Source of the DNA: Candidatus Portnoybacteria bacterium RIFCSPHIGHO2_02_FULL_39_12
GTDB taxonomy: Bacteria; Patescibacteriota; Minisyncoccia; Portnoybacterales; UBA2143
DNA: 55,607 bases
Direction of reading: 5' to 3'
Assembly (NCBI GenBank): GCA_001819555.1
Contig: MHMZ01000012.1
Location: forward strand, 1-55,607
Shown: positions 172 through 47,508 of the stretch, one piece after another
How the letters are laid out: the number at the start of each line of letters is the position of its first letter
Position numbering within the stretch: the first letter of the stretch is position 1
Translations under genes and position numbers: made by a program
The notes under the pieces: generated by a model
Databases searched by the model: none
What the model saw: the letters and a program-made list of their open reading frames with translations, nothing else
What the model was told of the DNA's origin: nothing

Positions 172-2103
172 ATGACCATGAAAAGCGCCCTATCTATCCT
201 TAATCCACAACAACAAGAAGCGGTCAAAACTATCCAAGGCCCGATTTTAGTTATGGCCGGGCCGGGTGCGGGGAAAACCCGTGTCTTAACCCGCCGCATT
301 GCTTATATTATCCAAAAAGGCGTCAGGCCGGAAAATATTCTGGCCGTTACTTTTACCAATAAAGCGGCTGAAGAAATGAAAAAAAGAGTGAGCAAACTTA
401 TTGGAAATAACAGCGTCTTTCAAAAACGCCTGATTAAATGCCTGCCAACTATCGGCACTTTTCACTCAGTCTGCGTTCAGATTCTTCGCCGGGAAATAGA
501 CAAACTGGGCTATCGGAAAAACTTTATCATTTACGACTCAAAAGACCAGCTTTCCTTAATGAAACAAATCATCAAAGACCTTTTGATGAATCCCGAACAG
601 TTTAAACCGGCTACTCTTTCAGAAAATATTTCACGGGCCAAAGACGAGTTGGTTGACGCCCAAACCTACCAGAAAAGAGCCGATGAATACTGGCCTAAAA
701 AAATAGCGGAAATTTATCTAAAATATCAGACCGCCCTTAAAAAAGCGAATGCCTTGGATTTTGACGATTTGATTATGCTCACAGTCCGACTTTTTCAAAA
801 AGAGCCGGCGGTTTTAGAAAAATACCAAAATAAATGGCAATATATTCTGGTTGACGAAGCCCATGACACAAATTTTTCCCAATACCGGCTGATTAATCTT
901 TTAGCTCAAAAACATAAAAATCTTTGCCTTATTGCTGATCCAGACCAATCAATTTATTCTTGGCGCGGGGCTGATTTTAGAAATATCCTGAATTTTGAAA
1001 AGGACTATCCGGAAGCCAAGGTTATTCTCTTAGAGCAAAACTATCGCTCCACTCAAAATATCTTAGAAGCCAGCCATCATGTCATTGTTAAAAACAAAGA
1101 GCGCAAAGAGAAAAAGCTATGGACAGAAAACACGGTCGGCCCGCTGATTCAGATTGCCGAAGTAGCAAACGAACAAAAAGAAGGAGATTTTATTGTCAGT
1201 GAAATAAAAAATTTATTGAATCAACATTCGCACTCGCTTAATCTTAAGGACTTTACGGTTCTTTACCGAACCAACGCTCAATCCAGAGCCATTGAAGAGG
1301 CTTTTCTTAAAGCCAATTTTCCCTATAAAATCATCGGCGCGGTCAGATTTTATGAACGAACAGAAATAAAAGACATTTTGGCCTATTTAAAACTATTGAT
1401 TAACCCGAATGATTCAGTCAGCCTTCAAAGAGTTATCAATGTGCCGCCGCGGCGGCTGGCTAAATATAAATTGGAGCAGCTCCATTGGAGCAGTTCTTCT
1501 AAAGAACTGCTCCAATGGAGCTGCTCCAATGCGGCCAATGCGGCTCTCCGTTTTCAAGCTCTTATCCAATCCCTTTACCAAGCTAGTCAAACACTGCCTC
1601 TAAGCAAACTCATCAATCTTATTGTTCAAAAAACCGATTATGAAAATTATATTAAAAACAAAAACGAAGATGGCGAAAAGCGTTGGGAAAACATCCAAGA
1701 GCTTCTGACTGTAGCCAATAAATACAATAAAATTAAACCCCCTTTGGGGCTTTCCCGATTTCTGGAGGAAGTTTCACTTCTAAACCACGCTGATGAAATA
1801 AAAACCGAAAAAGACCTGGTCAACCTAATGACTCTTCATTGCGCCAAGGGCTTGGAATTTCCGGTGGTTTTTATGGCCGGCTTAGAAGAAAGTATTTTCC
1901 CTCATAGCAAAAGTCTGTTTGACCCGGCTCAAATAGAAGAAGAAAGGCGGCTCTGTTATGTGGGGATGACGCGGGCAAAACAAAAACTCTATCTAACCTT
2001 TGCCCAAAAAAGGCGGATTTACGGCAGTCTAATGGTTAACCCTCCTTCCAGATTTCTTTTAGATATTCCGGAACATTTGATAGAATTTTACGCAGGAACA
2101 TAA
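172..2103 (+). CDS. uvrD: UvrD/PcrA-family superfamily-1 DNA helicase
   Basis: 643-aa ORF with Walker A GPGAGKT, motif II LVDEAHDT, YRSTQNIL, TLHCAKGLEFPVVF and VGMTRAK motifs. It carries an in-frame 59-bp palindrome at 1471-1529. Confidence 0.93.
   Translation: MTMKSALSILNPQQQEAVKTIQGPILVMAGPGAGKTRVLTRRIAYIIQKGVRPENILAVTFTNKAAEEMKKRVSKLIGNNSVFQKRLIKCLPTIGTFHSVCVQILRREIDKLGYRKNFIIYDSKDQLSLMKQIIKDLLMNPEQFKPATLSENISRAKDELVDAQTYQKRADEYWPKKIAEIYLKYQTALKKANALDFDDLIMLTVRLFQKEPAVLEKYQNKWQYILVDEAHDTNFSQYRLINLLAQKHKNLCLIADPDQSIYSWRGADFRNILNFEKDYPEAKVILLEQNYRSTQNILEASHHVIVKNKERKEKKLWTENTVGPLIQIAEVANEQKEGDFIVSEIKNLLNQHSHSLNLKDFTVLYRTNAQSRAIEEAFLKANFPYKIIGAVRFYERTEIKDILAYLKLLINPNDSVSLQRVINVPPRRLAKYKLEQLHWSSSSKELLQWSCSNAANAALRFQALIQSLYQASQTLPLSKLINLIVQKTDYENYIKNKNEDGEKRWENIQELLTVANKYNKIKPPLGLSRFLEEVSLLNHADEIKTEKDLVNLMTLHCAKGLEFPVVFMAGLEESIFPHSKSLFDPAQIEEERRLCYVGMTRAKQKLYLTFAQKRRIYGSLMVNPPSRFLLDIPEHLIEFYAGT
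1471..1529. repeat. Palindromic repeat, family A, copy 1, in frame inside uvrD
   Basis: TTGGAGCAGCTCCATTGGAGCAGTTCT / AGAACTGCTCCAATGGAGCTGCTCCAA arms. Translated as LEQLHWSSSSKELLQWSCSN. Confidence 0.9.
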
Positions 2104-2116
2104 GGACGCGTTCCCG

Positions 2117-2169
2117 AGGTCAGACCCTTATTTTTGGAAACCGAGTTTCTAAAAATAAGGGTCTGACCT
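2117..2169. terminator. Strong hairpin between uvrD and rsmA (19-bp stem AGGTCAGACCCTTATTTTT / AAAAATAAGGGTCTGACCT)
   Basis: Perfect 19-bp inverted repeat starting 14 nt after the uvrD stop. It may be an intrinsic terminator or another palindromic element. Confidence 0.5.
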
Positions 2170-2181
2170 TGATTAAAATGC

Positions 2182-3111
2182 ATGAACAATAAAAATTTCT
2201 ACAAAACCCTCCTCAAAAAATACCATTTTCGGCCCTCCAAGCGTTTGGGCCAGAATTTTTTAATTGATAAAAAAGTTCTTAAAAAAATTATTGAGACAGC
2301 TGATTTATCGCCGGAAGATACTGTTTTAGAAATCGGGCCCGGCTTGGGCGTTTTAACCAAAGAACTGGCCAAAAGAGCTAAAAAAGTCATCGCCGTGGAA
2401 AAAGATAAAAGAATGGCTGAAGCGCTAAAAGAAGTTTTAAAAGATTATAAAAATGTGGAAATTATAGAGAGTGATATACTCAAATTAGCTTGGAGCAGCT
2501 CCATTGGAGCAGTTCTGAAATTCAGAACTGCTCCAATGGAGCTGCTCCAAGCCCAATTTAAACTCATAGCCAACCTTCCCTACTACATCGCCTCGCCGGT
2601 TATCCGTCTTTTTTTAGAAACTGAAAATCCGCCAAAACAAATGGTTTTAATGATTCAAAAAGAAGTGGCCCAAAGGATTTGCGCTAAACCGCCCAAGATG
2701 AGTTTATTATCTGTTTCAGTCCAATTTTACGCTGAACCAAAAATAATCAGCTATGTTTCACGAAAATCTTTTTGGCCCCAGCCAAAAGTTGATTCGGCGA
2801 TAATTAAGATTGCGCCTATTCGCTTTTTGGAGCAGAAATTTTTGGAGACAGCTCCAATAAAATTGAAGACTGCTCCAAAAATTTCTGCTCCAAAAAGCGC
2901 CATCCTTCGGGAAAAATTCTTCAAAATAGCCAAAGCCGGCTTCTCTTCCCCCCGAAAACAATTAGCCAATAACCTCTCCAAAAAACTTAAAATAGACAAA
3001 GACAAAATTAAAAAAGCCCTGCTTGATTGCGGGCTTGAGCCGGAAATAAGAGCCGAGAGTTTGTCAGTAAAAGATTGGATGAAGCTTAATGAAAAACTGT
3101 CATCTTTATAA
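2182..3111 (+). CDS. rsmA: 16S rRNA (adenine1518/1519-N6)-dimethyltransferase RsmA/KsgA
   Basis: 309 aa with LGQNFL, the SAM motif VLEIGPGLGVLT and the catalytic ANLPYYI motif. It is longer than usual because of two in-frame palindromic inserts (2490-2550 and 2823-2899). Confidence 0.92.
   Translation: MNNKNFYKTLLKKYHFRPSKRLGQNFLIDKKVLKKIIETADLSPEDTVLEIGPGLGVLTKELAKRAKKVIAVEKDKRMAEALKEVLKDYKNVEIIESDILKLAWSSSIGAVLKFRTAPMELLQAQFKLIANLPYYIASPVIRLFLETENPPKQMVLMIQKEVAQRICAKPPKMSLLSVSVQFYAEPKIISYVSRKSFWPQPKVDSAIIKIAPIRFLEQKFLETAPIKLKTAPKISAPKSAILREKFFKIAKAGFSSPRKQLANNLSKKLKIDKDKIKKALLDCGLEPEIRAESLSVKDWMKLNEKLSSL
2490..2550. repeat. Palindromic repeat, family A, copy 2, in frame inside rsmA
   Basis: The 61-bp sequence is identical to the copy at 18261-18321. 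Translated in a different frame from the uvrD copy, as AWSSSIGAVLKFRTAPMELLQA. Confidence 0.92.
2823..2899. repeat. Second palindromic insert in rsmA, related to family A (CTTTTTGGAGCAGAAATTTTT ... AAAAATTTCTGCTCCAAAAAG)
   Basis: Perfect 21-bp terminal arms. Translated as LEQKFLETAPIKLKTAPKISAPKS. Confidence 0.8.
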
Positions 3112-3117
3112 GAAGAC

Positions 3118-3564
3118 TTATTTTCTTTTAGAATGATGGCTTAAAAATACTTTAATGTAATTCAAAAATGTATCAAAATCACCTAAATCTTTTTTGACTA
3201 TTTTATACATTTCCAAAGGAGTGACATCAAAATAAAAATGGGTTAATCTGTTGCGATAGCCGGCCATTTCCGTTAAATTATTCTCGGCAAATTTTTTAGA
3301 AATTATTTTATATTCTCCCAGTTTTTGAGCAATTTCTTTATAGGCGCTCACTTGAACATGAGGAATCCGAGAAAGAATATGACTGCCAATATCAAAAACC
3401 GCCTCTAAAGCCCTCCTCAAATTATGTTCGGCAATAGCAAAATTGTCTTCTAAGGCGAATTTGCCTTGACTCATCTTTCGCATCTTCTTGAGGCGTTCCA
3501 CGCTTTTCTGAATAATATCAATCCGGTCAATAATTAGTTTTTTATTAATATCTATTTTATTCAT
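3118..3564 (-). CDS. hepT: HepT-like HEPN-domain toxin (DUF86)
   Basis: 148 aa with the Rx4H HEPN motif in YRNRLTHFY. It overlaps the upstream nucleotidyltransferase gene by 4 bp. Confidence 0.8.
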   Translation of the reverse strand: MNKIDINKKLIIDRIDIIQKSVERLKKMRKMSQGKFALEDNFAIAEHNLRRALEAVFDIGSHILSRIPHVQVSAYKEIAQKLGEYKIISKKFAENNLTEMAGYRNRLTHFYFDVTPLEMYKIVKKDLGDFDTFLNYIKVFLSHHSKRK

Positions 3565-3968
3565 ACTCTTGATAAAATTGCCTGATTAAATCTTTCCAAA
3601 TGCGGCTGAAAATCAAGATACTGCTTTAAGGTATATTCTTCATAGGCATAGCGCTTAGCCCGTGTTTTTTGATATAAGACCTCTCCGGTCTGAATGGCTG
3701 AAATCTGAACGCTTAAAGGGACAGACTGCAAAAAAACCACATCTATCTCTTTGTCTATGGGGAAAATGCGGCTAAATAATTTATACAAATCCTTAAAAAC
3801 ATTTGTTTTGTCTTTTATTTTCTCTGGCTGGGTAAAAACTAGACCAATGTCAATATCGCTCATTGGCTGAGTTCTTTTTTGCGCTTCTGAACCAAATAAA
3901 TAGACGATTTCAAGACCTATTTTTTGAAACTCTCTGATTTCTTTTTTAGAAAACATTATTTTGCCCAT
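3561..3968 (-). CDS. mntA: MNT-type nucleotidyltransferase antitoxin
   Basis: 135 aa with the GS...DxD signature (LFGSEAQKRTQPMSDIDIG) of minimal nucleotidyltransferases. Translationally coupled to hepT. Confidence 0.8.
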   Translation of the reverse strand: MGKIMFSKKEIREFQKIGLEIVYLFGSEAQKRTQPMSDIDIGLVFTQPEKIKDKTNVFKDLYKLFSRIFPIDKEIDVVFLQSVPLSVQISAIQTGEVLYQKTRAKRYAYEEYTLKQYLDFQPHLERFNQAILSRV

Positions 3969-4012
3969 GGTTTAATAGTAGCAAATAAAAATTGGATTGG
4001 CAAGGAGAATTA

Positions 4013-4245
4013 CCCCGCCCTAATTTTGCGGAATCTTAACAACCCCGCACTTATTTTGCGAGATATTCTATGGCGGCGCACTCGCTCGCCTGATGGCTCG
4101 CTCGGGGCTATTCGCCCCCTGCGCCGCGAGACTAAACGATGGCTATAACTTTACCCTATTATTGCTACTAAGTCTGGCAAAATTAAGGCGGGGTTAATGT
4201 TTGTTAGCTACTCGTCGCCTAAGGCGACTCGCAGACAAACATTAA
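4013..4245. repeat. Cluster of GC-rich nested inverted repeats
   Basis: CCCCGCCCTAATTTTGC (4013-4029) pairs with GCAAAATTAAGGCGGGG (4177-4193). There is an inner GCGGCGCA/TGCGCCGC stem and a separate hairpin TTAATGTTTGT...ACAAACATTAA at 4194-4245. Confidence 0.6.
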
Positions 4246-4249
4246 AAAA

Positions 4250-4298
4250 AGGCAGGGAGTAGTGTTTAGATGCTTCGCATCCAAACTACTCTCTGCCT
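4250..4298 (-). terminator. Intrinsic terminator of the 4363-4851 gene
   Basis: On the minus strand, AGGCAGAGAGTAGTTTGGATG...CATCTAAACACTACTCCCTGCCT is followed by a T7 run. It lies 65 nt downstream of the stop codon. Confidence 0.6.
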
Positions 4299-4362
4299 GC
4301 GGCCTCCTTCTTATTAAGTATCAACAGCATATTTGCTGTCATAAAGGAAGACCTTTTGAAAA

Positions 4363-4851
4363 TCAATTCACCTCCTGAATTTGGGAGGCGTTTATTAAAT
4401 AAACGCCTCCCTGATTGCTGTAATTTGGCAGCGGGGTTGACTGCCAGACGCCGGGACTGGCTTCGGGTCGAGATTGAGGTTGAGGCAGAACCCGGGACTG
4501 AGATACAGGCTGTCCTCCCAAGGCCCCAACGATGATTTGATCAATCACAGAGTCGGGAAGAGTTTTTACTCTTTCTCCAACTCTTTCCCCTAAAGAAGAA
4601 TAGAGCTGTTTTTTAAATCCCAACTCTACTTCCTCTTGGGGAGATGGCCCCATCAATTTGCGGCCTGCCCAAGTTACCAACGGAATCCCTATCAAAACCC
4701 CTGCAACAAGTATTAACGTCTTGGCAACTCCCGCTTCTGCGTCTTCGGGGTAGCGGGCAGCTGGTTCTCCATTCCAACTATAGGCCACTACTGGGGTAAA
4801 AACAAAACAGAAAATCAGAAAAAAAATCGAAATCTTTTTCACTTCTCTCAC
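4363..4851 (-). CDS. Hypothetical secreted/membrane protein
   Basis: 162 aa with an N-terminal signal-like hydrophobic segment and a second TM segment (LILVAGVLIGIPLV). No recognisable catalytic motif. Confidence 0.55.
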   Translation of the reverse strand: MREVKKISIFFLIFCFVFTPVVAYSWNGEPAARYPEDAEAGVAKTLILVAGVLIGIPLVTWAGRKLMGPSPQEEVELGFKKQLYSSLGERVGERVKTLPDSVIDQIIVGALGGQPVSQSRVLPQPQSRPEASPGVWQSTPLPNYSNQGGVYLINASQIQEVN

Positions 4852-4875: not shown

Positions 4876-5370
4876 CTAATTTTCTATTCTAAACCGAACT
4901 ATTTGCCCTATTCCTATGGAAGGAAAGGGCCGATGGGGGTCATATCTGAAGTCTCCATCGCTGAAAACTTCATAGTCCCCGAAGTGGCGGCCGTGAGACT
5001 CAACAGTGCCGCCGTTAATTTGAAGAGTAAATTCTCGCTGTTCTAAAAAACCAACGAGGTTTACTCCTCCTTCTTTCTTTGGCTGGCCTTCCCGGTAGGC
5101 CGTGACTATTCCACCGTACTCGCCGTAGCGCCGGACCGCTAAAGCGATGGAACGTTGTGGGCCTAACACCAAAGTGTCAGTCCCCAACATTCCAACAAGT
5201 CCCTCAATCTTAATCCACCGAGAGGACTCGTTGAAGAGTCCAATTCGAAGCTCCAAGGGCGGTGCCTCTATACCGCCACTTGGTCCAGACGGAGGAATCA
5301 CTATGGTTGTGCCCGCGGCACAACCGACAAAAAACAAACAAAACAACCCTGCAAAAAATCTTCTCATCAC
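4876..5370 (-). CDS. Hypothetical lipoprotein
   Basis: 164 aa with a signal peptide ending in the lipobox-like LFFVGC. Confidence 0.55.
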   Translation of the reverse strand: MMRRFFAGLFCLFFVGCAAGTTIVIPPSGPSGGIEAPPLELRIGLFNESSRWIKIEGLVGMLGTDTLVLGPQRSIALAVRRYGEYGGIVTAYREGQPKKEGGVNLVGFLEQREFTLQINGGTVESHGRHFGDYEVFSDGDFRYDPHRPFPSIGIGQIVRFRIEN

Positions 5371-5443
5371 ACACCTCCTTACGGGATTTATCTCTGACTA
5401 AAGCCAGGACTCCTGCCCGCAAAAAATTGTTTATAAAATCACT

Positions 5444-5511
5444 GTCATTCTGAACGAAGTGAAGAATCCCGTGGAATTAAGCGCCGGATCCTTTACTTCG
5501 CCCAGAATGAC
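5444..5511. repeat. Palindromic repeat, family D (GTCATTCTGAACGAAGTGAAGAATCCCGT ... GGATCCTTTACTTCGCCCAGAATGAC), intergenic copy
   Basis: Imperfect inverted repeat. It is related to 18677-18752 and to half-sites at 32744-32782 and 54075-54095. Confidence 0.8.
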
Positions 5512-5675
5512 AAGCCATATTCCATTGTCAAAGTACGCCCGCATTATACCACCTATCCCCCATATTTGTCAAGAGCTGACTTCTAAAGCTCCTTTAATGA
5601 CTCCCGCATATCAAGTCCTGTCAAGACACATCAGAGCGCTCGCGAAAAATCTGTGGATAACTATAAGTTTATTAT

Positions 5676-5712: not shown

Positions 5713-6120
5713 ATGCCATCGTTATTCTCTCTTAAAAAATTATTGATAATGGCAATTTTGATATTGGCCTTGATTTTTATATTATTCTTCTGGCCAAAAA
5801 CGCTTTTTCAAATCACAAACACCTCTTCTTTAACCATGGCCGGCAATCTCTTCGGCGGAAAAACAAAAGAAGTAATACCTTGCCTTCACCCTTTCACCGG
5901 TTTTTACATCAAGCTAAGCGGGCCAACTGCCGGTGATTTTATTTATAACAGCGGCACCTCAAAAAGTTATTTATACGGACCGCCCAACCCCAACCGTTTA
6001 GGACAATGGCTTTTGGGTTATGCGGCCGGAGATGTTAAATGTTTTACAGCCGAAAAACACGGCAAATGGCGAAATCCGAAATCCGGCACCCTTATTTTAT
6101 TTCACGGCTCAAGCATGTAA
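5713..6120 (+). CDS. Hypothetical membrane-anchored protein
   Basis: 135 aa with a single N-terminal TM segment. First gene of a long co-directional block. Confidence 0.55.
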   Translation: MPSLFSLKKLLIMAILILALIFILFFWPKTLFQITNTSSLTMAGNLFGGKTKEVIPCLHPFTGFYIKLSGPTAGDFIYNSGTSKSYLYGPPNPNRLGQWLLGYAAGDVKCFTAEKHGKWRNPKSGTLILFHGSSM

Positions 6121-14972: not shown

Positions 14973-15050
14973 AGCAAGATAAGCGAGATAAGCTAATAAG
15001 TAAATTAAGCTTATTTTACTTATTTTACTTAATTTACTTATTTTACTTAC
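14973..15050. repeat. AT-rich palindromic repeat, family F (AAGTAAATTAAGCTTA core)
   Basis: Shares AGCAAGATAAGC and AAGTAAATTAAGCTTATTTTACTT modules with 44814-44862 and 49598-49659. Confidence 0.75.
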
Positions 15051-17048: not shown

Positions 17049-18161
17049 ATGCTCAAAAAAACTCTTATTATCTTAATTATCCTGCTTGTCCTTGTGGCGG
17101 GAACTTTAGTGGTCTATAATTTCTTCTTTAAAAAAGAAGCGGCGCCGGTCGTCACCGAAGAATTGCCTGAAGAAAAAATAACTCCTTCTCCAACTGCTAA
17201 AATTAAGCCAATTTCCCAAGAGCCGGTTTTAGCGCCGACCATAGACAATCAAAAGATTAAATATTATTTAGCCAATAACGGCAATGTTTTTGAGTCAAAT
17301 TTTGACGGCTCGGATTTAGAACGTCTTACTTCTAACGCGCTTCAAGGTCTTAAATATATTATTTGGGCGCCGAACAAGACAAAAGTCATCGGTATCTTTG
17401 AAAAAGACGGAGAAGTTAAAAAATATTTTTACGACTATCAAACAAAAAAATCAGCCCTGCTTAACCAAAATATCCAATGGCTGACCTGGTCGCCTGACAG
17501 CCGGCAAATCGCCTATCAATATTACAACCCCCAAACCCAGGAAAACTACATCAGTTTGGCCGATCCCGACGGTTCAAACTGGCAAAACGCCTTTAAGACC
17601 AGAATCAAAGACATAATCGTAGAATGGCCGAAAAAAGAGCTGATTTCTTTAAGAACCAGGCCGAGCGGCCTGGCCCAAAGCGAGCTTTATACGCTCAACC
17701 CCCAAACCAGCGCCTTTCAAAAAGTTTTAAGCGGCATTTACGGCTTAAGCGCGCTTTGGTCGCCTTCCGGAGAAAAATTTATTTTTTCCCAGACAAATAG
17801 CGACGGCCGCAATCTGAAATTAAAAATAACCAATAAAAACGGGGAGGCGCCCAAGGAATTAAATGTTTTGACTCTGCCTGAAAAATGCGTTTGGAGCCAA
17901 GACGAAAGATATGCGTTCTGCGCTGTCCCCTCGGCTCTCCCCCCTCAAGCTATTCTGCCGGATGATTATTATAAAGAAACTTTCTCAACGGCCGATGACT
18001 TTTATAAAATAAACACAGAAACCAATCAAAAAACGCTTTTAATTGAACCGGAGCAAATGGAAAGCGACTATGACGCTACTTCGCTCCTTCTCTCGCCCCA
18101 AGAAGATTATTTGTTTTTTGTGAATAAGAAAGACGGGCTGTTATACTCGCTAAAGCTATAA
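17049..18161 (+). CDS. Membrane-anchored TolB-like beta-propeller protein
   Basis: 370 aa with an N-terminal TM segment and repeated W(S/A)P(D/S)(G/S)..I(A/F) motifs (LTWSPDSRQIAY, ALWSPSGEKFIF) typical of PD40/TolB blades. Confidence 0.6.
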   Translation: MLKKTLIILIILLVLVAGTLVVYNFFFKKEAAPVVTEELPEEKITPSPTAKIKPISQEPVLAPTIDNQKIKYYLANNGNVFESNFDGSDLERLTSNALQGLKYIIWAPNKTKVIGIFEKDGEVKKYFYDYQTKKSALLNQNIQWLTWSPDSRQIAYQYYNPQTQENYISLADPDGSNWQNAFKTRIKDIIVEWPKKELISLRTRPSGLAQSELYTLNPQTSAFQKVLSGIYGLSALWSPSGEKFIFSQTNSDGRNLKLKITNKNGEAPKELNVLTLPEKCVWSQDERYAFCAVPSALPPQAILPDDYYKETFSTADDFYKINTETNQKTLLIEPEQMESDYDATSLLLSPQEDYLFFVNKKDGLLYSLKL

Positions 18162-19407
18162 TCAACCAAAAAATAATCGCCAAGTCATTTTTCCAATATG
18201 TGGTGTCTACTAAGCCGTGGATTAAGATATAAACCATGGCGGCGCTTAAAAAGCGAGAAATTGGAGCAGCTCCATTGGAGCAGTTCTGAAATTCAGAACT
18301 GCTCCAATGGAGCTGCTCCAATTTAAATCTGCTAAAAAACCAAATCAACAACAAAATAAAACCAATCAACCCAATCAAGCCGGTCTGGAGCCAAAAAGCA
18401 AGAAAAAGATTATGGGGCTGGGACGCGGCCCATTCTAAATATGGCTTAAATTTCGGCTGATAGGCCAAATAATACCTCTGAAACAAACCCGGGCCAACCC
18501 CCCACAAAAAATTGTGGGGGGTGGTTTTTATTATCTCTATGGCTGTCCGCCAAATTATTAAACGGGATTCCAAAGACGAACGGGAAAAATTAAGGATATT
18601 TTGAAATTTTTCGGTTTGGAGTTGAGAAAAAATCAAAAGAGTAATGGCCAAAGCAATAAAAGAGATAATAATTATCGTCATCCTGAGCGAAGCGAAGGAT
18701 CCCGTGGCAAAGACTATAAATCTACGGGATCCTTCGCTTCGCTCAGGATGACATCTAATGCCTACAAAAAAACCCAAAGCTACAATCAGTCCCAGCCAAG
18801 CGCCATGAGAATAAGTCAAATAAATAACAACTAACAACAAACAACTAACAACTAACAACAATAGTTTTTGCCAGCTATCTTTTAAAAACCCCCACAAACC
18901 AAAGCCCAGAATCAAAATCGGCGTCAAATACATGGCTAAATGGTTAGGCGAAAGATAAAAGGCCTTAAGCCGGCCATCATAAGTCAAATCATCAAAAAAC
19001 CAATACCAAAGACCGATCACCGCCACCCCCCCGCCGGAGATAGTTAAAGCAATTAAAATATCCCGAATCTGCTTTTGATTTTTAACTGAATCTAAAAACA
19101 CTATAAAAAAGAGCCAAGGCGCCATAAACCAGCCCTTCCAAATGCCGGCGCTCACCAAAAGGTCGGCCGAGAATAAAGTGGAAATAGTCAGACCGAGAAA
19201 AATTAAAAATATTGGAAAAACAAAAGCCGCTCTCCACTTAATAAACAAGGAACGCCCTCGCTTTTCTATCAACCACAAAACAAATACTCCATAAATGAGC
19301 AATTCTAAAATTGTCAATGGAATTAACCAGATTTTTAGCTTAAACAGATAAAGAGGTAAAACCAAAATAATTAAGCAGATTCCAAAATGGATAATCTTTT
19401 TGAGCAT
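18076..19407 (-). CDS. O-antigen ligase-like (Wzy_C family) polytopic membrane protein
   Basis: 443 aa, multi-TM, with QPHNLFLAFWLQTGLIG matching the Wzy_C HN..L....E.G..G signature. It contains two in-frame palindromes (18261-18321 and 18677-18752). Its 3' end overlaps the convergent gene by 86 bp. Confidence 0.7.
   Translation of the reverse strand: MLKKIIHFGICLIILVLPLYLFKLKIWLIPLTILELLIYGVFVLWLIEKRGRSLFIKWRAAFVFPIFLIFLGLTISTLFSADLLVSAGIWKGWFMAPWLFFIVFLDSVKNQKQIRDILIALTISGGGVAVIGLWYWFFDDLTYDGRLKAFYLSPNHLAMYLTPILILGFGLWGFLKDSWQKLLLLVVSCLLLVVIYLTYSHGAWLGLIVALGFFVGIRCHPERSEGSRRFIVFATGSFASLRMTIIIISFIALAITLLIFSQLQTEKFQNILNFSRSSLESRLIIWRTAIEIIKTTPHNFLWGVGPGLFQRYYLAYQPKFKPYLEWAASQPHNLFLAFWLQTGLIGLIGFILLLIWFFSRFKLEQLHWSSSEFQNCSNGAAPISRFLSAAMVYILIHGLVDTTYWKNDLAIIFWLIIALASITARLSYSQKTNNLLGAREGAK
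18261..18321. repeat. Palindromic repeat, family A, copy 3, in frame in the O-antigen ligase-like gene
   Basis: Identical 61-mer to 2490-2550. Translated as LEQLHWSSSEFQNCSNGAAPI. Confidence 0.92.
18677..18752. repeat. Palindromic repeat, family D, in frame in the O-antigen ligase-like gene
   Basis: GTCATCCTGAGCGAAGCGAAGGATCCCGT ... ACGGGATCCTTCGCTTCGCTCAGGATGAC with perfect 29-bp arms. Translated as HPERSEGSRRFIVFATGSFASLRMT. Confidence 0.92.
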
Positions 19408-20718: not shown

Positions 20719-22164
20719 TTAAATATCAGCTGATTCCTGATAAATTTGCGTCAATTCGTTAACTTTTAACCCGCCGATTAAATACAGAACTCCGAAATAA
20801 GTCAAAGCGGCTGAAGTTATTGAAAGAAAAAGGCCCCGGTCTCTAAAAAAATAAAGCGGGAGAGCCATGATTAAAACGGCAAAAGAGCATTTAAAAATAA
20901 AGCTGAAAGAGGGCAATGTTTTATTGGCCCGATAAATAATTATCAGCATCAAAACAGTGACAATAAATTCGGTTAAAACCGTAGTTGAGGCCGCTCCGTA
21001 ATAAGAATACCTCGGGATAAATATAAGATTGGTCAAAACATTGATGACCGCTCCCAAGCCGTAAATATAAGTCAGGGCTTTTTGTTTCTTTAAAGCGATA
21101 ATCATATTGGAAAAAAGAGCGGCTATAAAAATAATGCCGACCGCGACAATCAAGATGTTTAAAACTCCGGCTGAAAGAATAAAATCTTGGCCGCCAATTA
21201 GATTTATTATTTGAGACGAGAGGAAAAAAACGCCGACAATCAAAGGTATAGTTATTATCAATAAAATATCCAAAGTTTTTTGGCTGATTTCCTGAAATTT
21301 TCTTCTGTTTGAAAAAGCGTGTTTTGAAAGTAGGGGCATAATCAGGCCGACAAACATGGCCGGGAAAAAAATTAAGTTCTCTAAAATCTTATAAGCCAGA
21401 CCGTAAATTCCCACGTCAATCTGATCTTTCATAAAAGAAAGCATAACCGTGTCTAGTTTAAAGTAAATCATAACCAGAATAGCGGCGATACCCAAAGGGA
21501 GCGCCTCTTTTATCAGCTGCCCCCAAAAAGAAAAGTCAAAACTAAACTTGAGAATGATATATTTTCGGATAAAAATAAGGACTAAAATAAAATTCACTAT
21601 GGCGCCGCCGACTAAGGCGCTGACAATAAACAAAAAACCGAGCTTCTCGTAGATAAAAAAGACGACCAGACCTAACTGAACCAGCCGGCTAACCACCTCG
21701 GCCAAAGCCACTTTATCCATCTGCAGATATTTCTGAAAAACGCCCATCAAAACCTGATTATTAGATAACAGCCAAAAGCCAATCGCGCCGACAAGAATAC
21801 CCATCCTAACTTCAAAAGCATAAGGAAAAAACCAAGCAGCGAGAGGAGCCAGGCCAAACGCAACCAGGCCGGCGAAAAATCTTAAAGTAAAAGCGTTGCT
21901 GATTATTTTTTCTTCATCGGCTCCGGGCTTAGAAATATCTCTGATGCAAATGGAATAAAGCCCCAAGTCGGCTAAAACCGTGAAAATATATAAAAAAGCC
22001 AAAATCGTAGTGTATTGGCCAAAGCCGGTCTGACCCAGATAGCGCGTCAAAAAACCGATAATTATAAAAGCAAGGGCTGCGTTAATAAGCCGAGCCCCTG
22101 TTGAAATAACGATATTGTAGACTATCCTTTTGACTAACACATATATTGGGAGTCCTTCTCCCAA
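20719..22164 (-). CDS. Wzx/MOP-superfamily polysaccharide flippase
   Basis: 481 aa with about 14 TM helices, adjacent to the ligase-like genes. The annotated TTG start lies inside palindrome B, so the true start may be a few codons downstream. Confidence 0.7.
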   Translation of the reverse strand: MGEGLPIYVLVKRIVYNIVISTGARLINAALAFIIIGFLTRYLGQTGFGQYTTILAFLYIFTVLADLGLYSICIRDISKPGADEEKIISNAFTLRFFAGLVAFGLAPLAAWFFPYAFEVRMGILVGAIGFWLLSNNQVLMGVFQKYLQMDKVALAEVVSRLVQLGLVVFFIYEKLGFLFIVSALVGGAIVNFILVLIFIRKYIILKFSFDFSFWGQLIKEALPLGIAAILVMIYFKLDTVMLSFMKDQIDVGIYGLAYKILENLIFFPAMFVGLIMPLLSKHAFSNRRKFQEISQKTLDILLIITIPLIVGVFFLSSQIINLIGGQDFILSAGVLNILIVAVGIIFIAALFSNMIIALKKQKALTYIYGLGAVINVLTNLIFIPRYSYYGAASTTVLTEFIVTVLMLIIIYRANKTLPSFSFIFKCSFAVLIMALPLYFFRDRGLFLSITSAALTYFGVLYLIGGLKVNELTQIYQESADI

Positions 22165-22187
22165 AATTTTGGGAGAAGGACTCCCAA
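22146..22187. repeat. Palindromic repeat, family B (TTGGGAGTCCTTCTCCCAA ... TTGGGAGAAGGACTCCCAA)
   Basis: Perfect 19-bp arms. A second copy lies in frame in argS at 50374-50413. Confidence 0.9.
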
Positions 22188-22651: not shown

Positions 22652-22658
22652 ATAAAAT

Positions 22659-22749
22659 GAATCAAGAATCAAGAATCAAGAATTAACAATAAGAATCATG
22701 GATTTAATTTTTTCTTAATCCTTAACTCTTGATTCATGATTCTTGATTC
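22659..22749. repeat. Palindromic low-complexity repeat (GAATCAA heptamers) spanning the yidC-jag spacer
   Basis: GAATCAAGAATCAAGAATCAAG ... CTTGATTCATGATTCTTGATTC. The right arm encodes the last residues and stop codon of yidC (PNQES*). Confidence 0.75.
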
Positions 22750-26990: not shown

Positions 26991-29619
26991 ATTCTTTTAT
27001 AATAGTTATTTCGTCTTCTTCTCTGTTTAAGGCCTCATCATAAGCGCGGACTTTGATGGTTTGTTGGGCGGAAGCAGTTAGATAAGGAGTGAGATTAAAA
27101 GTAATTGAGTAGGGCTGAATAGTGTCAGCGCCGACTAATCGGTCGTTAATAAAGAAATCAAGTTGCTTAACGCCCAAAGACGCCGAGGCCTCGGCCTGAA
27201 TAGTTAGGACGGATTGGGTAATCGCTTCGTTGTTTTTTGGGGAAATAATTTTTACTTTTAGCTGTTCTTTTTTAATATGAACATCATCGTATTCGGTCGG
27301 CAATAATTGATTATAAACCGGGCAAGGAGAATTTGAGCAGGGCGGATTTTTGGCCCAAGCCAAGATCGGGGTCTCCCAATTAAGGAATTGGGGGTCGTTT
27401 TCTTGATTTTCGGGAATCGGTCCGGTCGGATTATTTTTATCAACATAATAAAGAATTGAATGGACTTCCTGATAAATTTTTTCTTCAATTAAGTCCGGCG
27501 GGGTTAAATCTGTTGCTAATTTGCCGGAAATTTTATCAATTTTTATTTTTCTCTCAAAAGCAAATTGGCCGTTAAGGATTGGTTTGCCTGTTGTTATCGG
27601 CTCTGGCGAAGTAAATTCTTCTATTTTATTAGGCAGCGTGAACAAAGCGAGGGGCTGTCCTTCAGACTCCTGAGGGGCAGCCCCTCGTAGTTCATAAGCC
27701 CGTTTCATAAACTCATTCCAAATTGGGGCCGCCACATAACTGCCATCGCCTTGCCGCATTGAAGAGCTATCATTATTGCCGGCCCAGACCCCGGCGACTA
27801 AAGACGGCGTGTACCCGACTGTCCAGCCGTCGCGGTATTCTTGAGTGGTGCCGGTTTTAACCGCGGCTGGCCGGCCAGCTAAATAAAGATTTGAATGGGA
27901 ACCAAACATCGGGGCCCGAGCTTCTTCGTCGGAAAGAATATCATTGATTTGCCTGGCAGTTTGCTGGTCTAAAACCCGGCTAGACTTATTTTGATATTCT
28001 TCTAAAATATTTCCTTTAGCATCTTTTATTTTTAAAATAGAGGCAACCGGATGTTTTATGCCTTCAGCGGCAAAGACCCCATAAGCCGCTGTTTCGTCTA
28101 AAAGTTTCACTTCGCCGCCCCCTAAAACCAAAGACAAGCTATAACGTTTTCGGTCTTTTAAGGTGGTGATACCCATATCTTGGGCCAAATTAATAGTTTC
28201 ATTTAAGCCGGCCAAATAAAGAACCTTGACCGAAACCAGGTTGATTGATTGGGCCAGGGCTTGGCGCATAGTTATTGGCCCCCGAAATCTCCCATCGTAA
28301 TTTTGCGGCTTATATTCTTTTTCTTGGCCCGGCGGACCAAACAAACCAAAACTGGTTTCTAAATCAAATAAAACAGTTTCAGGGGTAAATCCCTTTTTAA
28401 GAGCCGCGGCGTAAGCAAACGGCTTGAAAGAAGAGCCGGGCTGACGATTGGGGCTTATAGTCACATTGAAATTGCCTTGGTTTTTAATATCAAAATAGTC
28501 GCGTGAGCCGACCATAGCCAAAATCTGGCCGGTTTTTGGGTCAACGGAGACCAAAGCGGCGTTAGTGGCCAGATAGTTCTTTTTATTATAATCAGCCCTT
28601 TGGGCAATCGCTTCTTCAGCGACTTTTTGTAAATTCCAATCAAGAGTAGTATAGACTTTTAAGCCGCCCTTTTCCACGTAATCCCGGCCGTATTTTTCTT
28701 CCAAATATTCTTGGATATACATAACAAAATGAGGCGCTTTAAAGCCGTATCTTTGAGGAGCGTATTTCAATTTTTCTTTTTTTGTTTCTTCAATTTTCTC
28801 TTCGGTCAAATAGCCGAATTTCGCCATTCGGTCTAATATGTATTCTTGGCGGGCCTTAAGTTCGTCAGTATGAGAACCGTAAGGCGAATAATAAGTCGGC
28901 GCCTTGGGCAGACCGGCTAAAAGAGCGGCTTCGGCCAAAGTCAGCTCTTTGGCCGGTTTATCAAAAAAAGTTCGGGCCGCGGCCTCAATGCCATAGGCGT
29001 TAGAGCCGTAAGGCACCTGATTGAGATAAAAGCCCAAAATTTCATCTTTGTCATATTTTATTTCTAATTCCAAAGCAAGAATGGCTTCTCTGATTTTTCT
29101 GATAAAGGTTTTTTCCGGCGTTAAAAAAGCGTTTTTAATGAATTGCTGGGTGATGGTTGAGCCACCCTGGGTTATTTTTTGGCCTCGCAAGTTAGCGACA
29201 GCGGCCCGGATTATTCCTTTTAAGTCCAGGCCAAAATGATGGTAAAAATTGTCATCTTCGGCAATAATGGTTGTTTCTTTGACATATTGAGGGATTTCTT
29301 CAATCGGAATAATGGTTCTTTTTTCCTCTCCGTGAATATCATAAAGCACCACTTCGCCGGTCCGGTCATAGATTTTAGTTGACTCTACTACCTCTCGCTG
29401 GCTGATTTTTTCCGGGTCAGGCAGGTCTTTGGCAAAATAGGCAAAAACGCCCAAGCCTAAAAAAAGCAAAAGCAAAGGAGTCAAAATAATTATTCTTAAA
29501 AGTCCCTTAAATACTCTCTTTTTTCTCCGGGGCTTTTTAAATTTACCCCGCACCTTTCGCGCAAAAATACTTTGTCTGCGAAAGGTGCGGGGTTTTCGAT
29601 AATAAATTCTTCCAACCAC
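26989..29619 (-). CDS. Class A penicillin-binding protein (GT51 transglycosylase + transpeptidase) with a C-terminal Ig-like domain
   Basis: 876 aa. GT51 motifs are EDDNFYHHFG and GGSTITQQ. Transpeptidase motifs are SSFKP (SxxK) and KTGT. The cytoplasmic tail contains palindrome H at 29546-29592. Confidence 0.9.
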   Translation of the reverse strand: MVGRIYYRKPRTFRRQSIFARKVRGKFKKPRRKKRVFKGLLRIIILTPLLLLFLGLGVFAYFAKDLPDPEKISQREVVESTKIYDRTGEVVLYDIHGEEKRTIIPIEEIPQYVKETTIIAEDDNFYHHFGLDLKGIIRAAVANLRGQKITQGGSTITQQFIKNAFLTPEKTFIRKIREAILALELEIKYDKDEILGFYLNQVPYGSNAYGIEAAARTFFDKPAKELTLAEAALLAGLPKAPTYYSPYGSHTDELKARQEYILDRMAKFGYLTEEKIEETKKEKLKYAPQRYGFKAPHFVMYIQEYLEEKYGRDYVEKGGLKVYTTLDWNLQKVAEEAIAQRADYNKKNYLATNAALVSVDPKTGQILAMVGSRDYFDIKNQGNFNVTISPNRQPGSSFKPFAYAAALKKGFTPETVLFDLETSFGLFGPPGQEKEYKPQNYDGRFRGPITMRQALAQSINLVSVKVLYLAGLNETINLAQDMGITTLKDRKRYSLSLVLGGGEVKLLDETAAYGVFAAEGIKHPVASILKIKDAKGNILEEYQNKSSRVLDQQTARQINDILSDEEARAPMFGSHSNLYLAGRPAAVKTGTTQEYRDGWTVGYTPSLVAGVWAGNNDSSSMRQGDGSYVAAPIWNEFMKRAYELRGAAPQESEGQPLALFTLPNKIEEFTSPEPITTGKPILNGQFAFERKIKIDKISGKLATDLTPPDLIEEKIYQEVHSILYYVDKNNPTGPIPENQENDPQFLNWETPILAWAKNPPCSNSPCPVYNQLLPTEYDDVHIKKEQLKVKIISPKNNEAITQSVLTIQAEASASLGVKQLDFFINDRLVGADTIQPYSITFNLTPYLTASAQQTIKVRAYDEALNREEDEITIIKE
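29546..29592. repeat. Palindromic repeat, family H copy, at the 5' end of the PBP gene
   Basis: CCCCGCACCTTTCGC ... GCGAAAGGTGCGGGG with perfect 15-bp arms. Translated as KPRTFRRQSIFARKVRG if the ATG at 29619 is used. Confidence 0.85.
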
Positions 29620-37050: not shown

Positions 37051-37133
37051 ACGTTTAGGAGCCTCTACGTTTAGGAGCCTCGCTCCTAAATTCTTTTAGG
37101 AGCGAGGCTCCTAAACGCATAGGCTCCTAAACG
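37051..37133. repeat. Nested palindromic repeat, family C (ACGTTTAGGAGCCTCGCTCCTAAA ... TTTAGGAGCGAGGCTCCTAAACG)
   Basis: Duplicated arms in the spacer between ruvC and the 7TM gene. A second copy lies in the tsaE 3' end at 43863-43910. Confidence 0.85.
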
Positions 37134-47361: not shown

Positions 47362-47440
47362 AAAGAAATTAGAATTATGAATTAAGAATAAAGAATGGGA
47401 ATATAGAATACTGAATTTAGAATAAAAAATAAATTCTATA

Positions 47441-47508
47441 TTCTAAATTCTTGATTCCCATTCTAAATTCTTGATTCCCATTCTAAATTCCAAATTCTAA
47501 ATTCTAAC
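47441..47508. repeat. Tandem 20-bp duplication (TTCTAAATTCTTGATTCCCA x2) plus a degenerate ATTCTAAATTCCAAATTC tail
   Basis: Perfect 20-mers at 47441-47460 and 47461-47480. The repeat abuts the rpmI stop codon. Confidence 0.85.

What the first reader, a model, noticed from the sequence alone, without database searches (positions are those of the whole stretch)
1471..2550. A 59-61 bp perfect palindrome (family A) is inserted in frame in uvrD and rsmA (third copy in an O-antigen ligase gene) and is read in two different frames
The sequence TTGGAGCAGCTCCATTGGAGCAGTTCTGAAATTCAGAACTGCTCCAATGGAGCTGCTCCAA occurs identically at 2490-2550 (rsmA) and 18261-18321. A copy with a slightly different centre lies at 1471-1529 (uvrD).

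None of the copies interrupts the host ORF. They are translated as LEQLHWSSS... in uvrD and the ligase gene, and as AWSSSIGAVLKFRTAPMELLQA in rsmA.

Selfish palindromic DNA that colonises essential protein-coding genes without breaking them is the hallmark of the Rickettsia palindromic elements (RPEs). Finding an analogous but much shorter element in a CPR-like genome would be an independent example. It raises the question of whether the inserted peptides sit in tolerated surface loops.
Basis: partly seen in the sequence, partly recalled or inferred. Interest (0 to 1): 0.75.

Follow-up and report, generated by a model that had tools for sequence, protein, structure and literature searches.

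The report
Transposase-linked palindromes inside CPR essential genes
Three copies of a 59-61 bp perfect DNA palindrome really do sit in frame inside the helicase, rRNA-methylase and glycan-ligase genes of a tiny groundwater bacterium (Candidatus Portnoybacteria). They belong to a repeat family that also brackets a REP-type tyrosine transposase gene in the same species, so they are most likely a CPR version of the known REP/RAYT selfish-DNA system, tolerated in floppy protein loops.

Summary
Perfect palindromes lie at 1471-1529 (uvrD/pcrA), 2490-2550 (rsmA) and 18261-18321 (Wzy_C ligase gene, minus strand). None breaks its ORF, and two reading frames are used.

The organism is a Candidatus Portnoybacteria (Parcubacteria, CPR). 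A metagenome scan found about 13 further sites of the same family in this species. These include in-frame copies in pheT, ychF and an ECF sigma factor.

Two copies lie 5 nt and 9 nt from the ends of a 196-aa Y1/HUH transposase gene. This gene matches Pfam Y1_Tnp, NCBIfam REP-associated tyrosine transposase (79.9 bits, cutoff 80) and, best among PDB entries, E. coli TnpA-REP. Its orthologues keep the same gene neighbourhood in three other lineages. Each is flanked by its own palindrome family, one of which occupies the same UvrD and RsmA loops in related genomes.

The peptide segments fall in length-variable, low-pLDDT loops that are absent from the closest orthologues.

The best reading is a REP/REPIN-like (REPtron/TIRtron) system. 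It resembles the Rickettsia elements in behaviour but is not a member of that family. Intragenic REPs, including in UvrD and tRNA synthetases, were already reported in 2013. This is therefore a new variant in a new host, not a new kind. No mobility or enzyme activity was shown.

The parts
1470..1530 (.). Family A palindrome, copy 1. Core 1471-1529 is 59 nt, plus one complementary flanking pair (A/T). It lies in frame in uvrD and encodes LEQLHWSSSSKELLQWSCSN (residues 434-453).
   Evidence: DNA hairpin -36.3 kcal/mol, z -14. The segment aligns to a length-variable stretch after PPRRLAKY and has pLDDT below 50 at 429-452.
2488..2552 (.). Family A palindrome, copy 2. Core 2490-2550 is 61 nt, plus two complementary flanking pairs (GC/GC). 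It lies in frame in rsmA and encodes AWSSSIGAVLKFRTAPMELLQA (residues 103-124).
   Evidence: The loop between motif III (DILK) and motif IV (NLPYY) is 24 aa here and 7-8 aa in the shortest orthologues. pLDDT is below 50 at 105-120.
18258..18324 (.). Family A palindrome, copy 3. Core 18261-18321 is identical to copy 2, plus three complementary flanking pairs (AAA/TTT). It lies in frame in the minus-strand Wzy_C gene and encodes LEQLHWSSSEFQNCSNGAAP (residues 363-382).
   Evidence: It lies in a length-variable loop between predicted membrane helices when compared with 40 representative homologues.
2821..2899 (.). Diverged relative of family A (79 nt, 87% complementary, TTGGAGCAG units at 15-nt spacing). 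It lies in frame at a second variable site of rsmA and encodes RFLEQKFLETAPIKLKTAPKISAPKS.
   Evidence: pLDDT is about 52-58 at residues 213-240. The shortest orthologues have nothing at this site.
172..2103 (+). Host gene uvrD/pcrA (643 aa).
2182..3111 (+). Host gene rsmA/ksgA (309 aa), carrying two palindromes.
18076..19407 (-). Host gene for a Wzy_C (O-antigen ligase-like) membrane protein (443 aa). It carries the family A copy and a family D palindrome (18677-18752).

Best explanation
Family A is a lineage-specific family of hairpin-forming palindromic repeats of the REP/REPIN type. It is paired with a chromosomal, vertically inherited RAYT-like Y1/HUH tyrosine transposase in this Candidatus Portnoybacteria species.

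Shown here:
- The same 23-nt arms occur at about 16 canonical sites, plus 2 variants, in contigs of this one species.
- Two copies bracket the RAYT-like gene at 5 nt from its start codon and 9 nt from its stop codon.
- RAYT orthologues (58-73% identity) sit in the same gene neighbourhood in three other lineages. Each is flanked by a different palindrome family. One of those families fills the same UvrD and RsmA loops in related genomes.
- All 27 arm positions are complementary in all 16 copies, including copies with double (compensatory) changes.
- The centre varies from site to site.
- The first flanking base pair is always complementary, although its identity varies.

Inferred:
- The RAYT recognises the single-stranded hairpin and copies or moves the element, as proposed for REPs and REPINs.
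- Because this genome is roughly 80% coding, many landing sites are in genes. Only copies that keep the frame, avoid the centre stop, and fall in dispensable surface loops survive. Such loops include the start of UvrD's 2B domain, the RsmA loop between motifs III and IV, inter-helix loops of the ligase, and loops in PheT, YchF and sigma.
- Perfect symmetry is maintained by hairpin-templated copying (template-switch or quasi-palindrome correction, or fold-back synthesis of one arm). This would also explain the palindromic, variable centres and the complementary flanking base.
- The encoded peptides are passengers, not functional modules.
For: Family and copy number:
- The metagenome scan gave 18 loci, about 11 unique sites, all 99.7-100% identical strains.
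- L003 abuts window bases 1-72 at 100% identity.

Same species as the window:
- NCBI locus tags A3I88_/A3H00_ (Portnoybacteria RBG_13_40_8 and others) hold both the RAYT (P0241) and the window's UvrD and RsmA.

Identity of the transposase:
- Pfam Y1_Tnp 47 bits against a cutoff of 23.
- NCBIfam NF047646 REP-associated tyrosine transposase, 79.9 bits against a cutoff of 80.
- HxH, Tyr and Y-I-H-x-N-P are invariant in 18 homologues.
- The profile's best PDB hit is 4ER8 TnpA-REP, E 6.7e-5, ahead of IS200/IS605 transposases.

Flanking and synteny:
- Flanking copies lie at L011 3869-3924 and 4530-4585, around the gene at 3934-4524.
- The neighbourhood (large LTD/beta-helix protein, RAYT, NTP_transferase, ECF sigma, DUF5667) is conserved in L023, L026 and L027. 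L028 keeps the downstream genes but has a ParB_N gene upstream.
- Flanking families are lineage-specific.
- The family flanking the RAYT in L026 is the one found in the uvrD and rsmA loops of L019 and L021.
- Many of 80 RAYT loci from GTDB species representatives are flanked on both sides by cognate palindromes.

Symmetry:
- 432 of 432 arm pairs are complementary.
- The -1 flank is complementary in 16 of 16 copies (AT 7, TA 7, CG 2). Positions -3 to -5 are complementary in only 9 of 48.

Loop location and absence from orthologues.

Published precedent: REPs flank RAYT genes and co-evolve with them (PMC2817692; PMC3116915; PMC5581495). Intragenic REPs and TIRYT/TIRtrons are described in PMC3733652.
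Against: - No mobility was seen. All sampled contigs are near-identical strains, so no filled-versus-empty site pair was found.
- No biochemical evidence links this RAYT to this hairpin.
- The classical 5' GT(A/G)G or CGTC head is absent.
- The NCBIfam score is a hair below cutoff. A single-sequence PDB search found nothing.
- Element lengths (56-61 nt; 58-63 with the flank pair) are mostly not multiples of three. Net length gains against orthologues (+5 to +16 aa) do not equal the 20-21 codons. Simple paste-in cannot be the whole story; replacement of loop sequence or later adjustment is needed.
- The window holds at least four other palindrome families, but only one RAYT locus was found. Whether one enzyme serves all of them is unknown.
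- In RAYT loci of other taxa, in-ORF palindromes are rare, about 9% against about 35% here. The coding-gene habit is therefore not a general property of the enzyme.
- The link between the L026 flanking family and the L019/L021 in-gene copies rests on different contigs and samples.
Confidence: 0.7

Rival explanations
1. The elements are RPE-like orphan selfish palindromes with no dedicated enzyme. They spread by host recombination or replication slippage, and their position next to the Y1 transposase gene is coincidental.
For: The behaviour matches the Rickettsia elements: in-frame copies in unrelated conserved genes, two frames used, and no target-site duplication. No activity of the RAYT was shown.
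Against: Family A copies lie 5 and 9 nt from both ends of the RAYT gene. In at least three other lineages the orthologous gene is flanked by that lineage's own palindrome family, as are many RAYT loci across phyla. That pattern is the published signature of REP-RAYT coupling (PMC2817692, PMC3116915).
Confidence: 0.1
2. The unit palindrome-transposase-palindrome is an ordinary IS200/IS605-type insertion sequence. The dispersed family A copies are its solo ends or miniature derivatives (PATE/MITE-like).
For: The gene is a Y1_Tnp family member bracketed by hairpins, like an insertion sequence. The profile also hits ISDra2 and IS608-type transposases.
Against: The gene sits in a conserved housekeeping neighbourhood in lineages only 58-73% identical, so it has not moved. 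Only one locus per species was seen. There is no tnpB. The best structural relative is TnpA-REP. The dispersed copies are complete symmetric palindromes, not half-ends.
Confidence: 0.1
3. The palindromes are host-beneficial elements rather than selfish DNA. They might be terminators, attenuators, mRNA stabilisers or nucleoid-protein sites, or the encoded peptides might be functional modules.
For: Intergenic copies lie between genes, where very stable hairpins (RNA -54 to -63 kcal/mol) could terminate or stabilise transcripts. REPs have such roles in other bacteria (PMC3733652).
Against: The same DNA is read in different frames in unrelated proteins, giving different peptides. The segments are absent from close orthologues and are predicted to be disordered. 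No Rfam family matches. A 30-bp hairpin inside pheT or rsmA mRNA has no obvious benefit.
Confidence: 0.07
4. The palindromes are assembly or chimera artefacts at hairpin-forming sequence.
For: Some contigs and gene calls break at the palindromes. P0126 is UvrD truncated at residue 443, and the L002, L015 and L003 contig ends lie at or close to palindromic repeats.
Against: Identical insert-bearing proteins come from 4 NCBI MAGs and 27 contigs, built with several assemblers and from several sample sets. ORFs stay intact across every copy.
Confidence: 0.01

Closest known systems
REP/REPIN-RAYT systems (Nunvar 2010, PMC2817692; Bertels & Rainey 2011, PMC3116915; Bertels 2017, PMC5581495)
   Same: - A Y1/HUH tyrosine transposase gene, apparently at one locus per genome, is bracketed by the repeat.
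- The repeat is dispersed many times more often than the gene.
- The gene is inherited vertically (conserved synteny).
- The enzyme and its flanking repeat family change together between lineages.
- Compensatory changes preserve the hairpin.
- The whole element folds as one long hairpin, like a REPIN.
   Different: - There is no GT(A/G)G head.
- The element is a perfect 56-61 bp palindrome built from nested 13-nt palindromic units (TGGAGC-A-GCTCCA), not two imperfect REPs with a spacer.
- About a third of copies lie inside ORFs, whereas REPs are almost exclusively extragenic.
- The host is a CPR bacterium.
- The copy number seen is modest (about 18 sites in the sequence sampled).
Intragenic GTAG/CGTC REPs, REPtrons and TIRYT/TIRtrons (Di Nocera et al. 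2013, PMC3733652)
   Same: - That paper reports REP dimers inside ORFs that encode 20-30 aa, notably in DNA-repair genes (UvrD/Rep helicase, UvrA, UvrB) and tRNA synthetases.
- It argues the inserts lie in linkers or loops.
- It describes tyrosine-transposase genes flanked by non-GTAG inverted repeats (TIRYTs), some of them self-complementary.
- The hosts found here (UvrD, PheT, ArgS) and the 20-aa size match closely.
   Different: - The phylum is different (none of their hosts is CPR) and the sequence family is different.
- Here the fraction of copies in genes is high.
- The same two protein loops carry different palindrome families in related lineages.
Rickettsia palindromic elements (RPEs; Ogata et al. 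2000, as summarised in PMC3733652)
   Same: Palindromic repeats inserted in frame in conserved genes of a reduced genome. The ORFs remain intact, and copies are also found between genes.
   Different: - RPE-1 is about two to three times longer (my own knowledge: roughly 100-150 bp).
- No dedicated transposase is known for RPEs, whereas here a RAYT-like gene is bracketed by the element.
- There is no evidence of sequence relatedness, and the host clade is unrelated.
Coding palindromes in Nematomorpha mitochondrial genes (PMC6649704), repetitive hairpin elements of sponge mitochondria (PMC2800124), and Coxiella MITEs in genes (PMC5896051)
   Same: Perfect or near-perfect inverted repeats embedded in protein-coding sequence of compact genomes, translated through.
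   Different: These are organellar or gammaproteobacterial systems. Their lengths and families differ, and they have no RAYT association. They were compared only from abstracts.

Membership tests
REP/REPIN-RAYT system | A RAYT gene is present: a Y1 transposase with the His-hydrophobic-His motif, the nucleophilic Tyr and an adjacent NP(L/V)xxG-type motif. | tested here: met
   The gene is in the same species, not in the window. Pfam Y1_Tnp E 3.5e-12. NCBIfam REP-associated tyrosine transposase 79.9 bits against cutoff 80. H61, H63, Y121, N125 and P126 are invariant and G130 is nearly invariant. The best PDB hit is 4ER8 TnpA-REP. The N-terminal Thr said to be conserved in RAYTs is not evident.
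REP/REPIN-RAYT system | The RAYT gene is flanked on both sides by the repeat. | tested here: met
   L011 3869-3924 and 4530-4585 bracket the gene at 3934-4524, with gaps of 9 and 5 nt. The arrangement is the same in L002, L016 and L023-L025.
REP/REPIN-RAYT system | The flanking repeat is strongly over-represented genome-wide relative to the transposase gene. | tested here: inconclusive
   About 16 canonical sites plus 2 variants against one RAYT locus in the roughly 150 kb of this species in hand. No complete genome was available. The GTDB scan with the exact arm found nothing.
REP/REPIN-RAYT system | The RAYT is vertically inherited and does not itself move. | tested here: met
   The neighbourhood is the same (NTP_transferase, ECF sigma, DUF5667, large LTD/beta-helix protein) in four lineages with 58-100% identical RAYTs. 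A single copy per genome could not be verified.
REP/REPIN-RAYT system | The RAYT and its flanking repeat family co-vary between lineages. | tested here: met
   L011 is flanked by TTGGAGCAG-type palindromes, L026 by AAGGACTGTCCC-type, L027 by AAGGCCGTGCCTT-type and L028 by AGGTTGAACCTAGGTCG-type.
REP/REPIN-RAYT system | A 5' GT(A/G)G (or CGTC) tetranucleotide lies at the foot of the hairpin. | tested here: not met
   The elements start N-TTGGAGCAG. No GTAG or CGTC is conserved at either end in 16 copies.
REP/REPIN-RAYT system | The repeats are extragenic. | tested here: not met
   Seven of about 18 family A sites are in frame inside genes: uvrD, rsmA (twice), the Wzy_C gene, pheT, ychF and an ECF sigma factor. 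Across all strong palindromes of the species, 17 of 49 are in ORFs.
TIRYT/TIRtron (Di Nocera 2013) | A tyrosine transposase gene is flanked by inverted repeats unrelated to GTAG REPs, and those repeats form a moderately abundant dispersed family. | tested here: met
   The definition is taken from PMC3733652.
Rickettsia palindromic elements (RPE) | Palindromic repeats are inserted in frame in protein-coding genes, and the ORF is retained. | tested here: met
Rickettsia palindromic elements (RPE) | The element shares sequence and size with RPE families (RPE-1 about 100-150 bp; RPE-4 and RPE-6 are CGTC-type) and has a Rickettsiales host. | tested here: not met
   The size is 56-61 bp, there is no CGTC head, and the host is Portnoybacteria. 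No direct alignment to RPE consensus sequences was made, because none was in hand.
MITE (DDE-transposon derived) | Terminal inverted repeats plus a target-site duplication. | tested here: not met
   The flanks are not direct repeats. Instead the first flanking pair is complementary in 16 of 16 copies.
IS200/IS605 insertion sequence | The transposase gene moves together with its ends and occurs in several copies or varied contexts. | tested here: not met
   There is one locus, in conserved synteny across lineages.

The most novel reading that the evidence does not exclude
In Portnoybacteria-like CPR bacteria, a domesticated RAYT and its fast-evolving palindromes repeatedly overwrite the same few permissive loops of essential proteins (the start of UvrD's 2B domain, the RsmA loop between motifs III and IV, and others). 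Each lineage's current palindrome family replaces the previous occupant. New copies are made by fold-back or template-switch copying of a single arm. That would explain the perfect symmetry, the palindromic variable centres, the complementary flanking base and the lengths that are not multiples of three. On this reading the system is a standing generator of protein-loop sequence in minimal genomes, and a tractable model for how Rickettsia-type in-frame palindromes are made.
Probability: 0.2. Interest if true: 0.75.

Novelty: new variant of a known kind. Interest (0 to 1): 0.5.

Why it matters
In-frame palindromic DNA in essential genes has been a curiosity since the Rickettsia elements were described, and no mobilising enzyme has been identified for them. 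Here the in-frame palindromes have an obvious candidate enzyme encoded next to two copies, in a very small genome. The link between a REP-type transposase and protein-loop insertions therefore becomes directly testable.

The finding also extends REP/RAYT systems to the Candidate Phyla Radiation. I found no paper in the searched library that mentions RAYTs and CPR together.

There are practical consequences too. These repeats break assemblies and gene calls. They add lineage-specific segments to marker proteins used for CPR phylogeny. They also generate recurring "hypothetical" peptide motifs in metagenomic protein databases.

Tried and rejected
- **GTDB scan.** The exact-arm scan of GTDB species genomes gave 0 hits, so no complete genome or copy count was obtained.
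- **Viral sources.** Viral contigs and GenBank phages gave no match. A phage origin is not supported.
- **Rfam.** No RNA family covers the palindromes.
- **PDB search with one sequence.** The RAYT alone found nothing. Only the profile reached 4ER8.
- **Empty sites.** All contigs carrying family A are 97.7-100% identical, most of them at least 99.7%. The nearest UvrD without the element (P0122, 83% identity) has no contig on record.
- **Linking the second family.** I tried to tie the L026 RAYT-flanking family to in-gene copies on one contig through UvrD P0182. It proved to be a different contig.
- **Target-site duplication.** None was found.
- **Length rule.** I looked for a rule that would make insertions a multiple of three. 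None holds: 56-61 nt, or 58-63 nt with the flank pair.
- **DNA-uptake signal.** I considered whether the 9-mer TTGGAGCAG acts as one. Every exact copy in the window lies inside the four palindromes, so this was rejected.
- **UvrD model.** Its overall quality is mediocre (mean pLDDT 67, pTM 0.48). Its loop assignment is only supporting evidence.

Full report
**1.
The window contains the 61-mer TTGGAGCAGCTCCATTGGAGCAGTTCTGAAATTCAGAACTGCTCCAATGGAGCTGCTCCAA at 2490-2550 and again, identical, at 18261-18321. A 59-nt copy with the same 27-nt arms and a shorter centre lies at 1471-1529. The arm pattern gave 6 matches and none in 100 shuffles.

All three copies lie inside intact ORFs.
- ORF 172-2103 is UvrD/PcrA.
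- ORF 2182-3111 is RsmA/KsgA.
- ORF 18076-19407 (minus strand) is a Wzy_C O-antigen-ligase-like membrane protein.

The copies are read as LEQLHWSSS... in uvrD and the ligase gene, and as WSSSIGAV... in rsmA. The third frame of each window copy has a stop in the centre, so the two frames used are the only open ones. The arms have no stop in any frame.

As single strands the elements fold into one uninterrupted hairpin. The energy is -33 to -41 kcal/mol as DNA and -54 to -63 kcal/mol as RNA, with z-scores near -14.

rsmA carries a second, diverged relative at 2821-2899, built from the same TTGGAGCAG units.

**2. The organism.**
The RsmA protein is 100% identical to proteins of four NCBI MAGs named Candidatus Portnoybacteria (for example RBG_13_40_8). 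It is called on 27 contigs from several sources. Portnoybacteria belong to the Parcubacteria/Patescibacteria group, which is CPR. An assembly artefact is therefore excluded.

**3. The segments are lineage-specific and lie in variable loops.**

*RsmA.* An alignment with 28 close homologues (54-73% identity) shows two sites of extreme length variation.
- The first lies between motif III (DILK) and motif IV (NLPYY). The second lies after strand IKI.
- The shortest orthologues have 7-8 residues at the first site and essentially none at the second.
- The window protein has 24 residues at the first site and about 27 extra at the second. These correspond to its two palindromes.

*UvrD.* The stretch after PPRRLAKY varies from 13 to about 45 residues among orthologues. 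It aligns to PcrA residues about 425-455, at the start of what I take to be domain 2B.
- The closest orthologue (83% identity) has an unrelated 24-residue sequence there. The window protein has 29 residues.

*Ligase.* The element lies in a length-variable loop between hydrophobic helices.

*Structure models.*
- The RsmA model has mean pLDDT 84. Residues 105-120 and 230-235 score below 50, next to a core that scores above 90.
- The weaker UvrD model (mean pLDDT 67) has residues 429-452 below 50, between confident helices.

The segments are also not clean 20-residue additions. The net gains are +5 to +16 residues, and element lengths are not multiples of three.

**4. Other copies of the family.**
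A scan of JGI metagenome contigs with the 23-nt arm returned 18 loci. They collapse to about 11 further unique sites in contigs that are 97.7-100% identical where they overlap, most at 99.7% or more. This is one species population. One locus (L003) abuts the first 72 bases of the window at 100% identity.

Together with the window there are 16 canonical sites and two variants.
- Seven are in frame inside genes: uvrD, rsmA (twice), the Wzy_C gene, pheT (L001), ychF (L017) and an ECF sigma factor (L011).
- The rest are intergenic or at gene boundaries.

Across the 16 canonical copies:
- All 27 arm positions are complementary (432 of 432 pairs). This includes copies with one to three double, compensatory substitutions.
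- The centre differs at almost every site (lengths 56-61 nt) but is usually itself palindromic.
- The first flanking base pair is complementary in 16 of 16 copies, although its identity varies (AT 7, TA 7, CG 2). Positions -3 to -5 are complementary in only 9 of 48.
- There is no target-site duplication.

**5. The key finding: a transposase gene bracketed by the family.**
In L011 (also L002, L016 and L023-L025) two family A copies bracket a 196-aa gene. One lies 9 nt beyond its stop codon and the other 5 nt before its start codon.

The protein has these properties:
- It is a Y1_Tnp family member (Pfam 47 bits).
- It scores 79.9 bits against the NCBIfam "REP-associated tyrosine transposase" equivalog, whose cutoff is 80.
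- It has invariant HxH and Y-I-H-x-N-P motifs.
- As a profile its best PDB hit is E. coli TnpA-REP (4ER8), ahead of the IS200/IS605 transposases.

NCBI locus tags show that the same MAGs encode this protein and the window's UvrD and RsmA. The window itself has no such gene.

**6. The gene is stationary, and its repeats co-vary with it.**
Orthologues at 58-73% identity sit beside the same NTP_transferase, ECF sigma, DUF5667 and large beta-helix protein genes in three other lineages. Each is flanked by a different palindrome family.

The family flanking the L026 orthologue has AAGGACTGTCCC and AGGGACAGTCCTT units. The same family sits in frame in the uvrD loop and the rsmA loop of relatives L019 and L021. 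The link between these contigs is by family, not by a shared contig.

A protein-pattern scan of GTDB species genomes found at least 593 related loci. They include many CPR groups (Doudnabacteria, Saccharibacteria, Daviesbacteria, Uhrbacteria) as well as Bacillaceae and Duganella. Many of the 80 fetched are flanked on both sides by cognate palindromes. In-ORF palindromes are rare in those loci, at roughly 9%. In this species 17 of 49 strong palindromes are in ORFs, with about 80% ORF coverage.

**7. Interpretation.**
These features match the published signature of REP/REPIN-RAYT systems (PMC2817692, PMC3116915, PMC5581495):
- a tyrosine transposase gene flanked by the repeat;
- the repeat dispersed far more often than the gene;
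- vertical inheritance;
- co-variation of enzyme and repeat;
- compensatory maintenance of the hairpin.

Two classical features fail. There is no GT(A/G)G or CGTC head, and the repeats are not extragenic. Di Nocera et al. (PMC3733652) already described both exceptions in other phyla:
- tyrosine transposase genes flanked by non-GTAG inverted repeats (TIRYT/TIRtrons);

I therefore read family A as a CPR variant of that known kind. It works like the Rickettsia elements but is not a member of that family.

The steps from "flanked by" to "mobilised by" are inference, as is the idea that hairpin-templated copying keeps the arms perfect. No mobility, empty site or enzyme activity was observed.

**8. 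Unexplained.**
- It is unclear how frame is preserved when element lengths are 56-61 nt.
- It is unclear why the first flanking pair is always complementary. The element may insert at the centre of a self-complementary dinucleotide, or the palindrome may grow outward by template switching.
- It is unknown whether one RAYT serves the other palindrome families in the window. Families B, C and D lie in frame in tsaE, argS and the ligase gene.
- It is unknown whether the same loops are colonised repeatedly or turned over in place.

**9. Novelty and score.**
I found no paper in the searched library that mentions RAYTs and CPR together, or that describes palindromes in CPR coding genes. The phenomenon itself, RAYT-type palindromes translated inside repair and translation genes, is published for other phyla.

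I rate it a new variant of a known kind, with interest about 0.5. It is a clean, testable system that gives in-frame palindromes a candidate enzyme, but it is not a new category.

Noticed in passing
window 18677-18752 (and a degenerate copy at 5443-5512): Family D palindrome (arms GTCATCCTGAGCGAAGCGAAGGATCC, 18-nt loop). It lies in frame in the same Wzy_C gene and encodes CHPERSEGSRRFIVFATGSFASLRMT. The copy at 5443-5512 lies outside the listed ORFs of at least 100 aa, between 4876-5370 and 5713-6120.
   Followed up: partly
window 43862-43910 and 37052-37133; also L003 and L015: Family B palindrome (TTTAGGAGCCTCGCTCCTAAA). One copy lies in the C-terminal tail of TsaE (ORF 43331-43948). A double copy is intergenic.
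   Followed up: partly
window 50370-50417 and 22146-22187: Family C palindrome (TTGGGAGTCCTTCTCCCAA). One copy lies in frame in the N-terminal domain of arginyl-tRNA synthetase (ORF 50147-51811). The other lies at the start of a polysaccharide-biosynthesis/flippase gene (20719-22164, minus strand).
   Followed up: partly
window 2117-2169 and 61-130: Unrelated strong hairpins between the uvrD stop and the rsmA start (AGGTCAGACCC...GGGTCTGACCT) and upstream of uvrD (GCCGCACCTTTTAGGG...). Both look like terminators. The CCGCACCTTT motif recurs at 29545-29593.
   Followed up: no
window 14995-15042, 49600-49659, 22657-22749, 47369-47507: AT-rich repeat families (AAGTAAAATAAGTAAATTAAG type and GAATCAAGAAT type) in intergenic regions. 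The first also occurs in L015.
   Followed up: no
window 49199-49590 (-): A tmRNA gene (Rfam RF00023, 137 bits), next to one of the AT-rich repeats.
   Followed up: no
UvrD homologues P0136, P0174, P0176, P0207, P0225, P0226, P0230: Several related Patescibacteria UvrD proteins are about 990-1077 aa and carry Hint/intein Pfam domains. UvrD in this clade therefore hosts inteins as well as palindromes.
   Followed up: no
L011 2899-2952 (ECF sigma factor gene 2546-3166, minus strand): A 54-nt variant made only of four 13-14-nt TGGAGC(A/T)GCTCCA units lies in frame between sigma regions 2 and 4. The public gene caller split this gene at the palindrome, calling a 127-aa product.
   Followed up: partly
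L017 672-732 and 2693-2756: One family A copy supplies an in-element ATG at the predicted start of a 164-aa ORF. Another lies in the def-fmt spacer and would extend Fmt at its N terminus. Both are probable mis-annotation traps.
   Followed up: no
L029-L108: RAYT-like genes with cognate flanking palindromes are common across CPR classes and other phyla in GTDB species representatives. In one Paceibacterota locus (L100), 12 palindromes lie in 20 kb and all are intergenic.
   Followed up: partly
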